64,000 bases of DNA from Octopus vulgaris (lineage: Eukaryota). Under the pieces are notes generated by a model, which worked only from the letters and a program-made list of their open reading frames with translations, had not been told where the DNA came from and did no database searches. Below, piece after piece: positions 6,091 through 54,036 of this stretch (positions are counted from its first letter, which is position 1; each line of letters begins with the position of its first letter). Position numbers and translations under genes: made by a program. The stretch lies in assembly GCA_951406725.2 (NCBI GenBank), contig OX597821.1, forward strand, positions 4,526,001-4,590,000, read 5' to 3'.

Positions 6091-7779
6091 ATGGGATATC
6101 GGGACGCACTTCTCAATACTGTTTCAAGAACACACACCATAAATCACAACAGGGCACCACACATCAACAAGGAACAACTACATAATAGCTACCGTCCCAA
6201 CCACCGCAAGATAGCAGCAAACTGGCAGGAGGAACCAAAAGTGATAAAAATTATCAATCTAACTCACAATGAACTAACAGCAAACCAAATAAATATACTC
6301 TCCAAAGGACTCAAGTTTACACCCACCACACAACATCCCAACTACAATCAAATGAAAGAAGGCATCGCAGAATTCTGTAGAAAATTACGGCTTACTGAGG
6401 AGCTATATGACAAATACAACGAGGACGAATCGTTGTTCAAAAATAGGAGTAACTACACCACCTCAAAAGGTGAGAACAAAACACTTGATCATTTCTGTGA
6501 ACACATCTCGAATTACCCATATCAACACTTGCACAAACAAAAACCCAAACCAAACTTCAGCAAAAAAGAATGGGCTGAGCTGAACAGATTAAAACAAGAC
6601 AAAACAATAACAATCAAAGAGGCCGATAAAGGGAGTGCAGTTGTTTTAATGGAGACGACATTTTACATAACTTTAGTTCTATCTATGTTGGAAGACACAA
6701 TATATTATGAAAAGGCACAAAACTACAGTCAACAAAAAATAATGAGGGAACAAAAATCCATTTTAAACCCATACAAAGAAGATCTCACCGACAAAGAATA
6801 TGACTATATGACCAATTTTACAAGTAAAACCTGCCAATTCTACGGTATTCCTAAGATACACAAAATTGAGAAAATAAGTAACGCATGCAAGATAGCCACA
6901 GACAAAATAATTAAAGTCCCTAATCCTAATGATCTCAAATTGAGACCCATTATAGCAGGTCCCGCATGCAAAACCCACCGCCTCAGTAACTTTTTAGACA
7001 CCCTGTTAAAACAACTCTTCAAACATGTCAAAAGCTATATAAGGGACGACCTGGATATGCTCAATCACCTACCTAATATTATAAACAAAAACACCTTACT
7101 AGTATCCTTCGATGTAGTCAACCTCTATTCCAATATCCCCCACAACCTAGGAATAGAGGCAATTCAATTCTGGCTAGAGAATCACGCCAACGAACACCTA
7201 CATTGCATCAAAAAATAATTCGTGATAGAAGGCGTTATATTCATCCTGGATAATAACTTCTTCGCCTTCAAAGACAACTTCTACCGACAACAATCGGGGA
7301 CTGCGATGGGTACGCGAATGGCCCCCTCCTTTGCCAACCTAGTCATGGGATATCTAGAAATCAGTCCGTATCGTAAGGTTCTAGAAAGATATGGCAGCCC
7401 TTTCTCCCTCTACACAGAAAACAAATGGAAAAGATACCTAGATGACTGTTTCATCCTTTTGCATGAAAATATAGAGAAACTCAAAGAATTCCAAGCAATT
7501 TTAAATGGACTGGCCGTAAACATCCAATTCACGATGGAATATAGCCAGCAACAACTCCCCTTCCTCGACATCCTCATTAAGAAATCTAATAATGTAATAG
7601 TAACAGATATATACTATAAGCCTACAGATTCTAAGCAATATCTTCCATTCAATTCATGCCACCCCAGACACACCAGAATGAATATCCCCTTCAATCTAGC
7701 AAAAAGGATATGTACTATAATTTCTAATGCAAACACCAGAGACACACGAACTACCCACCATCACCTTCACCATCACTAA
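6091..7779 (+). pseudogene. PLE reverse transcriptase with an in-frame TAA at 7216-7218 and a frameshift near 7750
   Basis: ORFs 6091-7218 and 7222-7779 are in the same frame and carry the PLE RT motifs, including catalytic YLDD. Confidence 0.93.
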
Positions 7780-7789
7780 TTGACATATG

Positions 7790-8501
7790 CATTCAACGTG
7801 CCCTTCAACTCAACATCCAGGAACTCAGACATCCCAAATTAAAGAAAAATTTACGACCAAAAGCCTTACCATACATCACACACAACCCTCTCAACTATGA
7901 AGCCTTCGACACCATCCTCCAAAACATACCCCTGCTAAAAAAAGACCACAGAATGAACTTAATCCTCCAAACACACACGATCATAAAAAGTAAGAGACAG
8001 CCCAAATCTATGAAAAGTCTCCTAACACATGCCCGAATACGCTCTCCAACACAGAAGCCGACAGTAAAAAAATGTGGAAGACCCAATTGCGGGATATGCG
8101 ATTATCTAATTGAGGGATCAGATTTCTCCTTCATACAGGGACAACGGTTCATAGTGAAAAGCAACTTCACATGTGCTTCGGAGAACCTGATATACACACT
8201 AACCTGCTCTGGGTGTCAAGAGCAATACATAGGCCAAACAAAACATAGTTTGCGTAAAAGAATGGCCCTGCACAGATCCCAGATAAAAATTCCCCAAAAC
8301 AGAAAAATAGCATTCAGCCAACACATAGATACTTGCGCCAACAACAAAACACCAAGCTTCAGGATTTTCCCCCTCTACCAATTCAGGGACGATACAACCT
8401 CGAGCCAACGAATAAGTAAAAAAATTCTCTATATTACAATATACAGGCCCCATCTGAACGCATCTACAACAAACGATATATCCACCTCAGCTTTAGAATA
8501 A
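7790..8501 (+). pseudogene. PLE linker zinc finger plus GIY-YIG endonuclease
   Basis: CGRPNCGIC (CX4CxxC linker), NLIYTLTCSGCQEQYIGQT, LRKRMALH, FSQH. CxxC between the GIY and YIG equivalents, as in Neptune/Poseidon endonucleases. Confidence 0.93.
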
Positions 8502-8631
8502 CACAAATACACACGCAAATATTACATTCCTAAGAATCCATTAAAAATCGACACCAATCACAGACATAACCCATAACGTGCCAACTTTAATTCATACAAC
8601 ACCTCACTACTTCCATGCATTCATATTCTCC

Positions 8632-53206: not shown

Positions 53207-53291
<85 letters not shown>

Positions 53292-53550
53292 TATTCGAGA
53301 CAAAACCACTATTTTAAAACCAAACAAGGAAAGACTTAATCAATACATAAAATTTTAATATAAATTAAATAAACCGCCACTACAATTGTTTCATGTCTGC
53401 TACCAACATGTAAATATCTTCAACGCGCCCACCACCCGATTTCAACATACATTGATAAACAGTTTGGCCATGGGCTCTTATGAGCCTCCTCGTTCGATTT
53501 TTTTTTGCTGCGCCTCTGTTCTGTTTTTGTTCTGCCAACGGAATTCCTAT

Positions 53551-53633
53551 TTCTTCCTGAAGAGAAAGACACAATATGGTCTCCTTATTCAATCGGAATT
53601 TGGTAAATTGTGGCTTTCGAAACACGTGTAGAA
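53551..53633 (+). ncRNA. Type I hammerhead ribozyme motif (PLE-like) with intact core
   Basis: ttc-CTGAAGA (53557-53563); stem II GAAAGACACAAT/ATTGTGGCTTTC (11 of 12 pairs); GAAA (53619-53622); palindromic stem III ACACGTGT; GTA triplet; stem I ttc/gaa. Confidence 0.75.
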
Positions 53634-53993
53634 TGCAATAAAAGGATTTCTGTTCAATCTTCGTTCAACTCCATTTCTTCAATTCACTAATAATATTAAA
53701 ATTCAATTATCCGCACCAACGCACGGTTGCAACACCATATGGTTGTACCTCCAACCGTGCTTTCTTCTGCTGTGATTTTTGCGACCAAGGTATCGGTTAA
53801 ACTTTTGATTAATCTGCAACAAGATTATTCATCTTTCTATTTCACCAAATATATATATATATATATATACCGGGGGAAGCACATAAAAATGAAACAAGGT
53901 TGAAAGCAAGAGTACTCAATACTAAAGGTAGAGTAAAATACTTTATTTAAAAGCAGCAGAAATATAACAAATGCTATTACTCTGAGTTTCAAA

Positions 53994-54031
53994 CTGTCCG
54001 ACGAACGGGAGCGTGAAACTCTGAGTAACAG
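53994..54031 (+). ncRNA. Minimal hammerhead ribozyme motif with one core substitution
   Basis: ctgt-CCGACGA-acg(ggag)cgt-GAAA-ctctgag-TA-acag. Stem I ctgt/acag, stem II acg/cgt, quasi-palindromic stem III, GUA site. U4->C relative to CUGANGA. Confidence 0.65.
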
Positions 54032-54036
54032 TAAAA

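What the first reader, a model, noticed from the sequence alone, without database searches (positions are those of the whole stretch)
53283..53850. (TA)n-flanked non-coding cassette carrying an intact hammerhead ribozyme with an unusually long stem II
Seen: a ~570 bp cassette bounded by (TA)n, with no RT or endonuclease coding, containing the full core CUGAAGA...GAAA, a 12-bp stem II with one mismatch around a ~31-nt loop, a palindromic stem III (ACACGUGU), a GUA cleavage triplet and an AATAAA just downstream. Known: PLE pseudo-LTRs and retrozymes carry type I hammerheads with short palindromic stem III that can cleave as dimers. Inference: a non-autonomous PLE-derived or retrozyme-like element, possibly still self-cleaving. 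Stem I is only about 3 bp in this copy.
Basis: partly seen in the sequence, partly recalled or inferred. Interest (0 to 1): 0.75.

Follow-up and report, generated by a model that had tools for sequence, protein, structure and literature searches.

The report
Two Penelope retrotransposon ends joined head-to-head
The hammerhead ribozyme motif is real, but the 'cassette' is the clipped tail ends of two different Penelope-type jumping genes fused head to head inside a TA repeat; the join likely arose when one landed on the other, it may instead record two different RNAs copied into one DNA break, and self-cutting is predicted but untested.

Summary
The motif is present as described, conserved (core intact in 69 of 75 arms) and its long stem II covaries. 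Stem I is longer than reported: 3 bp, an internal loop holding the AATAAA, then 11 of 12 more pairs. The interpretation needs correcting. This is not a retrozyme or a replicating cassette. Bases 53409-53849 are the 5'-truncated 3' end (pseudo-LTR plus tail) of an abundant autonomous Penelope-like family A (about 20 intact 899-codon RT/GIY-YIG frames). Bases 53284-53408 are the inverted 3' end of a second family B, carrying half of B's own hammerhead. The junction was found only here. Same-family inverted pairs with one short and one long end are the rule; two-family joins were 2 of about 200 sites, and the second carries a 60-base 28S rRNA insert. Family A is Hydra-like but lacks the linker zinc finger and still targets (TA)n. 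The scan noted these Penelope ends and the short/long rule before on other DNA of this genome. Known biology with a modest twist; cleavage untested.

The parts
53251..53285 (.). (TA)n target tract, left side
   Evidence: all four end types of families A and B were found by patterns that include (TA)n
53284..53408 (-). 3' end of PLE family B, 5'-truncated, ending at B's 'short' end in the left (TA)n
   Evidence: 1082 first-look candidates, best hits 97-98% over query 1-125; other copies run on into B's hammerhead and a 729-codon RT/GIY-YIG frame
53377..53408 (-). 3' half of family B's hammerhead (3' part of stem II, GAAA at 53392, palindrome ACAATTGT, GUA, stem I 3' strand); the CUGAAGA half is lost, so predicted dead
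53408..53409 (.). head-to-head junction of the two 5'-truncated arms: no TA spacer, no filler, no clear microhomology
   Evidence: public contigs break here and go on with each family's own sequence
53409..53849 (+). 3' end of PLE family A: end of 3' UTR, hammerhead, leader; ends at A's 'long' end
   Evidence: 2815 first-look candidates, best 39 others 95-99% from query position 108-125 on; locus L008/L032 continues into the ORF
53537..53654 (+). type I hammerhead of family A: distal stem I 53537-53548/53643-53654, proximal stem I 53554-53556/53631-53633, core 53557-53563 and 53619-53622, stem II 53564-53575/53607-53618, palindromic stem III 53622-53629, predicted cut after 53630, AATAAA 53637-53642 in the stem I internal loop
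53696..53849 (+). 'tail' of about 154 nt between A's two fixed 3' ends (short end about 53695, 65 nt after the cut; long end 53849, 219 nt after the cut, 37 nt before the ORF's ATG)
   Evidence: 293 exact short-end and 84 exact long-end pattern matches in the genome
53850..53869 (.). (TA)10 target tract, right side

Best explanation
The stretch is a relic of two Penelope-like retrotransposon families: the ribozyme-bearing 3' end of family A (53409-53849, plus strand) fused head to head to the 3' end of family B (53284-53408, minus strand), likely because an A insertion landed in the TA tract beside an existing B arm and the DNA between them was lost. Shown: the two families, their autonomous parents with RT and C-terminal GIY-YIG frames, the two fixed 3' ends in each family, TA tracts at the ends, and a junction found once. 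Inferred from known PLE biology: the element's endonuclease nicks (TA)n, its RT starts copying inside the RNA at one of two fixed sites downstream of the hammerhead, and stops early, which leaves a short arm with the hammerhead intact. The hammerhead is a passenger in this copy: in full-length tandem copies (unit about 3.62 kb) it would cut the multi-unit transcript after the GUA, likely as a dimer through the ACACGUGU palindrome or with help from the element's protein; here it could cut only if this site is transcribed on the plus strand, and a single motif cannot release a circle. Odds: identity as PLE ends about 0.95; junction by serial insertion with loss of the spacer about 0.55; family ribozyme active in some form about 0.8.
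For: Two families and a unique junction. [quoted passage not shown] Tandem trimer L092 with hammerheads 3625 and 3624 bases apart. Family B frame with 47% identity to A over the RT, sister to the A lineage at 99/95 support. Of 80 A long ends 61 have an inverted A partner, of 30 A short ends 24, of 70 B short ends 51, of 30 B long ends 24; where the partner's end was called it was the opposite kind in 117 of 119. Stem II: 7 of 12 pairs change on both sides in 16 chosen subfamily variants, 0 of 500 shuffles as high for covariation score. Serial insertion into one TA tract is common: L215 holds a B pair and an A pair about 20 bases apart, also L199, L274, L291, L325; 9 of 80 A arms abut other DNA without a near TA tract (three are one duplicated event, one is an assembly gap). 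Arms of same-family pairs share private variants (101 differences in 4,898 overlapping bases against about 222 expected), so a second template is not the norm. Two RT start sites and a protein-assisted hammerhead not needed for insertion are reported for the Anolis PLE (PMC11167929).
Against: Both two-family joins (window: A long + B short; L230/L328: A short + B-like long) obey the one-short, one-long rule, have no TA spacer, and have arms of similar divergence; the second has a 60-base 28S rRNA piece in the A arm's cDNA polarity. These fit a single event better. Pfam found no family in two A-lineage proteins at E up to 0.1, so the domain calls rest on motifs and comparison by eye. Rfam does not score the hammerhead. 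No cleavage or read-end evidence: only contigs were available.
Confidence: 0.8

Rival explanations
1. One integration event with two templates: the two DNA ends of a cut in (TA)n were each used as primer, one on a family A RNA and one on a family B RNA, and the two truncated cDNAs were joined. The usual inverted PLE insertion would then be a two-priming product whose second template is normally the same RNA but can be another.
For: No TA or filler at the junction. Short/long complementarity in 2 of 2 two-family joins. Similar ages: window A arm differs from the column majority at 5 of 434, B arm at 3 of 122, family medians 1.29% and 1.23%; in L230 the A arm differs at 6 of 222 and the B-like arm is 97% identical to its nearest copies. 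The L230 junction holds a 21-base fold-back and then a 60-base piece of 28S rRNA (98% to the rDNA array, Rfam RF02543), a sign that the RT changed RNA there. Foreign filler also lies between same-family arms in L124, L287, L289.
Against: Only 2 cases among about 200 sites; chance of both being short+long under independent insertion is 1 in 4. Same-family arms share private variants and many junctions are perfect palindromes, which fits fold-back or one template. Serial insertion and direct joins to unrelated DNA are common enough to give about 1% such chimeras (rough estimate, not measured). PMC3846280 reports no cross-mobilisation between PLE types in a rotifer and explains inversions by self-priming.
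Confidence: 0.37
2. A non-autonomous retrozyme-like element that is copied as a 570-bp unit through a self-cleaved RNA.
For: Non-coding, TA-flanked, intact type I hammerhead; retrozymes are proposed to derive from PLE pseudo-LTRs (10.64898/2026.07.22.740005).
Against: No second copy of the unit among 40 scored candidates in each of two searches; one ribozyme only, no tandem units; the two halves face opposite ways and each belongs to an autonomous family; no listed public contig bridges the junction.
Confidence: 0.03
3. The junction is an assembly artefact joining two repeat copies.
For: No listed contig of four public runs bridges it, though such contigs break in repeats and prove nothing.
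Against: The site lies inside a 119-Mb contig without N nearby; the two families share no homology at the joint that would invite a mis-join; a second join of the same type exists.
Confidence: 0.04

Closest known systems
Hydra clade of C-terminal EN+ Penelope-like elements, including Hydra-1_Obim of Octopus bimaculoides (Craig et al. 2021, PMC8557442; passages, section 11 and supplement parts read)
   Same: Single ORF with RT and C-terminal GIY-YIG, DKT for DKG, no CCHH, CxxC and CxH around E and N, canonical hammerhead in the pseudo-LTR, (TA)n targets, 5' truncation, partial tandems, inverted 5'-truncated copy, tail at one end.
   Different: Family A lacks the CxCX5C linker (114 of 115 homologues with an endonuclease end have a CxCx4-8C linker), has RWL for RWK, is 3.6 kb rather than under 3 kb, has a tail of about 154 nt rather than 30-40, and a 55-nt stem II domain where the paper's Hydra hammerheads have stems of about 3-8 bp and loops of 3-10 nt (File S2). 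The inverted partner here is from another family.
PAc, Poseidon element of Anolis carolinensis (Frangieh et al. 2024, PMC11167929; abstract and main text read)
   Same: Two fixed RT start sites inside the RNA downstream of the hammerhead that define the tail; AT-rich targets; both DNA strands cut and extended; insertions retain the uncut hammerhead.
   Different: PAc's start sites lie in the ORF and are adjacent; A's lie 65 and 219 nt after the cut in the leader. No biochemistry was done here.
Metazoan PLE hammerheads (Cervera and de la Pena 2014, PMC4209133, abstract and passages; review PMC6765202, passages)
   Same: Type I, short proximal helix I, larger helix II, palindromic helix III, expected dimer action with low in vitro activity; an intron ending just before helix I, as in family B.
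   Different: Helix II is 12 bp plus a 31-nt insert, against 6-8 bp reported; an extended distal helix I is predicted here.
Animal non-LTR retrozymes (Cervera and de la Pena 2020, PMC7229834, passages; Li et al. 2026, 10.64898/2026.07.22.740005, first 10,000 characters)
   Same: Non-coding, low GC, type I hammerhead, PLE origin.
   Different: Retrozymes are tandem repeats with at least two hammerheads and multiply as units; this site has one hammerhead, no tandem and no second copy.

Membership tests
Type I hammerhead ribozyme | Core CUGANGA, GAAA, UH with three helices, open helix I | tested here: met
   core intact in 69 of 75 A arms that span it
Type I hammerhead ribozyme | Helices supported by covariation | tested here: met
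   stem II 7 of 12 pairs with two-sided change; distal stem I 158 of 192 cells paired against 54-120 when slid, one G-C/A-U change; proximal stem I and stem III invariant, so uninformative; inner hairpin of the 31-nt insert not supported
Type I hammerhead ribozyme | Rfam hammerhead model match | tested here: not met
   no hit at gathering score or at E up to 10; likely because of the long stem II (inference)
Type I hammerhead ribozyme | Self-cleavage after the GUA | not testable with these tools
   only contigs were on offer; predicted active monomer fold costs 4.5 kcal/mol on a 103-nt stretch that omits part of the distal stem I, palindrome duplex -10.3 kcal/mol
EN+ Penelope-like element (parent of the A arm) | One ORF with PLE-type RT and GIY-YIG endonuclease | tested here: met
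   899-codon frames; motifs compared by eye with published alignments; Pfam silent
EN+ Penelope-like element (parent of the A arm) | Pseudo-LTRs from partial tandems, inverted 5'-truncated copies, tail at one end, hammerhead in the pseudo-LTR | tested here: met
Hydra clade | DKT instead of DKG; CCHH absent; CxxC and CxH around E and N; C-terminal EN | tested here: met
   four A-lineage proteins
Hydra clade | RWK motif | tested here: inconclusive
   RWL in all four A-lineage proteins
Hydra clade | CxCX5C linker between RT and EN | tested here: not met
   absent in four of four A-lineage proteins, present in family B; A is therefore filed as Hydra-derived, not as a canonical member
Hydra clade | (TA)n insertion and canonical hammerhead | tested here: met
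Hydra clade | Groups with reference Hydra RTs in a tree | not tested
   published reference proteins were not available as tool sequences; the tree holds 5 own proteins and 30 unnamed or little-named homologues and only shows A and B as sisters
Non-LTR retrozyme | Tandem units, each with a hammerhead | tested here: not met
   one complete hammerhead, no tandem array at the site
Non-LTR retrozyme | Multiplies as a non-coding unit | tested here: not met
   junction single among scored candidates
Non-LTR retrozyme | Expressed as small circular RNA | not testable with these tools
   contigs only

The most novel reading that the evidence does not exclude
Two-family head-to-head joins like this one are single integration events in which the two ends of a cut TA tract were primed on RNAs of two different Penelope-like families, one at its short start site and one at its long start site. 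The inverted arm of PLE insertions would then come from a second priming event by a (predicted dimeric) RT that can take a foreign RNA, not only from fold-back, and the rule 'one short end, one long end' would be set by the integration complex. As a second, independent twist, family A targets (TA)n without the linker zinc finger proposed to confer that bias.
Probability: 0.37. Interest if true: 0.62.

Novelty: new variant of a known kind. Interest (0 to 1): 0.33.

Why it matters
As a ribozyme it is ordinary: one of hundreds of near-identical hammerheads at the ends of an active Penelope-like family. What is useful is the record of mechanism. How PLEs make their inverted, tailed insertions is open; this genome offers two young families with two exact start sites each, hundreds of paired arms, and rare two-family joins that can separate fold-back from second-template models by counting alone. 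Family A also tests the proposed link between the linker zinc finger and TA targeting, and its hammerhead (long covarying stem II, extended stem I) is a natural variant for cleavage assays.

Tried and rejected
Rfam, whole window and local with E up to 10: no hammerhead. Pfam on two A-lineage proteins: nothing. Reading the first 125 bp as the end of an endonuclease ORF: rejected, it is family B's antisense non-coding end. An inner hairpin in the 31-nt insert: predicted by folding but not supported by covariation. AATAAA as a plain poly(A) signal: present within 15 nt of the cut in 16 of 16 variants but it lies in the stem I internal loop and the element's 3' ends are 53 and 207 nt further on; role undecided. 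The first junction classifier was spoiled by TA runs in the reference and was redone with masks; one search filed L230 under 'other DNA' and labelled some long arms 'solo', so its counts are approximate; a protein search of the 50 unexplained stretches found only L230, and families without a nearby ORF or hammerhead half could have been missed. L291 looked like a second chimera but has a TA spacer; L259's 'filler' is an inverted duplication of flank. Public runs: three probable-RNA contig sets cover both arms, but contigs show no strand, ends or locus, and the kind RNA is a guess. Rfam on the 60-base insert alone found nothing; it was identified through its genomic matches. PMC5785218 (Lunse et al., dimer cleavage) is not held; seen only as a citation. 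Literature searches showed no paper on two-family inverted PLE joins; subscription papers, bioRxiv supplements and figures were out of reach, so this is no proof that none exists.

Full report
1. Observation. A descriptor scan finds this one motif in the window against 0.05 per shuffle (at least one in 5 of 100 shuffles). Rfam has no matching model at gathering score or at E up to 10.

2. The cassette is two repeats. The window lies at C8:4,526,001-4,590,000 of a 2.8-Gb animal genome; it is likely an octopus (inference: the nearest named homologue is from Argonauta hians, and earlier scan notes say so). A search with 53286-53830 gave 2815 first-look candidates; of 40 scored only the window's own copy covers the whole query, the others start at query 108-125 and are 95-99% identical. 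A search with 53284-53440 gave 1082 candidates whose best hits stop at query 125-127. Public contigs break at 53408/53409 and continue with each family's own sequence. So the right 441 bp (family A, plus strand) and the left 125 bp (family B, minus strand) meet head to head at a junction seen once.

3. Family A is an autonomous Penelope-like element. One copy runs on past the long end into an RT frame. That protein finds 151 matches, about 20 with an open frame of 899 codons. [quoted passage not shown] L092 holds three units in tandem with hammerheads 3625 and 3624 bases apart. The window's arm is the end of the 3' UTR, the hammerhead and the leader up to 37 nt before the ATG. DKT, absence of CCHH, CxxC and CxH fit the Hydra clade as defined in section 11 of PMC8557442; the CxCX5C linker is missing in four of four A-lineage proteins, while 114 of 115 homologues with an endonuclease end have such a linker. 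Family A still ends in (TA)n. I file it as Hydra-derived. An octopus Hydra family (Hydra-1_Obim) is already published, with a different, short hammerhead.

4. Family B is a sister family. Its copies carry their own hammerhead with a short stem II and palindrome ACAATTGT; L133 holds a 729-codon frame with the CxCX5C linker, 47% identical to A over the RT. A and B group at 99/95 in a tree of 35 RT regions (5 own, the 30 best homologues). The window keeps only the 3' half of B's ribozyme.

5. The ribozyme. The core is intact in 69 of 75 A arms that span it and the window's motif is the commonest variant among the loci fetched (overlapping loci inflate those counts). In 16 variants chosen from 60 to represent subfamilies, stem II has 7 of 12 pairs changed on both sides; covariation score 0.275, reached by 0 of 500 shuffles and at most 0.074 when slid (related sequences can beat shuffles, but RNAalifold finds the same helix unaided). 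Proximal stem I (3 bp) and the first two pairs of stem III barely vary. Beyond an internal loop that holds the AATAAA, a distal stem I of 12 positions pairs at 11 in this copy and in 158 of 192 cells overall (54-120 when slid), with one G-C/A-U change; it is weaker in the A2 subfamily. An inner hairpin in the 31-nt insert is not supported. Long stem II domains are not unique: other motifs in the fetched loci have 51-83 nt, and PLE-X1 of Selaginella has a 9-bp stem with a long loop (File S2), though the paper's Hydra motifs are short. By established knowledge such motifs cut weakly and as dimers (PMC4209133; PMC6765202), and the Anolis PLE motif needs the element's protein and is dispensable for insertion in vitro (PMC11167929). 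Cleavage is untested here.

6. How the arms were made. Each family has two exact 3' ends downstream of the cut: A at 65 and 219 nt (293 and 84 exact pattern matches), B about 95 and 180 nt (376 and 149). This matches the two internal RT start sites and the tail of PMC11167929. I examined 210 anchored ends at about 200 sites (my count of overlaps from the coordinates; 80 of 84 A long, 30 of 293 A short, 70 of 376 B short, 30 of 149 B long, taken in list order; some are segmental duplicates). 160 have an inverted partner of the same family; where its end was called it was the opposite kind in 117 of 119. Overlapping parts of the two arms differ at 101 of 4,898 bases against about 222 expected from other loci, and share private variants (36 pairs): normally one template.

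7. The two-family join. The window (A long + B short) is the only such case among the 80 A long ends. One more turned up among the A short ends: L230/L328 has an A short arm, a 21-base fold-back, 60 bases of 28S rRNA in the same polarity as the A cDNA, and then a B-like family from its endonuclease end to its long end 2.8 kb on. Both lack a TA spacer, both pair short with long, and arm ages are similar. That is what one event with two RNAs predicts. But these elements pile up in the same TA tracts (L215, L199, L274, L291, L325; and a third family right beside this cassette), and several A arms abut unrelated DNA directly, so serial insertion with loss of the spacer can give about this rate. 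I put the serial route at about 0.55, one event at 0.37. PMC3846280 explains inversions by self-priming and saw no cross-mobilisation between PLE types; five searches showed no report of two-family joins, within the limits of the library.

8. Verdict. Real hammerhead, known context: the pseudo-LTR of an active Penelope-like family. Not a retrozyme. Earlier notes of this scan describe the same kind of ends, the long stems and the short/long rule elsewhere in this genome; I read them after reaching the same result, and a look-up for chimeric junctions showed none. New here: the two-family join with a second example, the extended stem I, and loss of the linker zinc finger in a TA-targeting lineage. 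Interest 0.33.

Noticed in passing
L036, L047, L133 (unspliced) and L040, L049, L059 (spliced); family B: Family B has a GT..AG segment of about 1.27 kb that ends 14 nt before its hammerhead core; copies with the segment precisely removed outnumber those that keep it (49 against 14 junction matches in 100 B arms, overlapping loci counted twice). Retroposition of spliced RNA argues for a sense template, against the antisense self-priming idea of PMC3846280.
   Followed up: partly
L230 / L328 (G000:C1:14.750-14.753 Mb): Second two-family join: A short arm, 21-base fold-back, 60 bases of 28S rRNA, then a B-like family arm of 2.8 kb with a long-stem hammerhead.
   Followed up: yes
window 53870-54035: Remnant of a third TA-associated repeat family directly beside the cassette, with inverted halves of a hammerhead-like stem III (GAAAC..GT at 53990 minus and 54015 plus); relatives occur in about a dozen fetched loci. 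Parent not traced.
   Followed up: partly
window about 6400-8540: A broken, nearly whole Penelope-like element of another type (DKG motif, CxxC linker, GIY-YIG end, followed by a (CTT)n tract); Neptune-like by recalled motifs.
   Followed up: partly
L083, L095, L097, L093 proteins: The A lineage replaces the linker zinc finger by a Ser/Asn-rich low-complexity stretch of variable length (778 to 907 residues in all), reminiscent of the Asn-rich inserts reported in rotifer Penelope elements (PMC3846280).
   Followed up: partly
L124, L287, L289: Foreign sequence of 60-180 bases between the two arms of same-family inverted pairs, in L287 a piece of a common SINE-like repeat.
   Followed up: partly
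family A 3' UTR, e.g. L002, L113, L122: A tandem repeat of about 100 bp in the 3' UTR with variable copy number.
   Followed up: no
fetched loci L014, L022, L042, L067, L098, L100, L115, L124, L149, L153 and others: Many further hammerhead-like motifs with palindromic stem III and stem II domains of 19-83 nt: the genome holds many such families.
   Followed up: no
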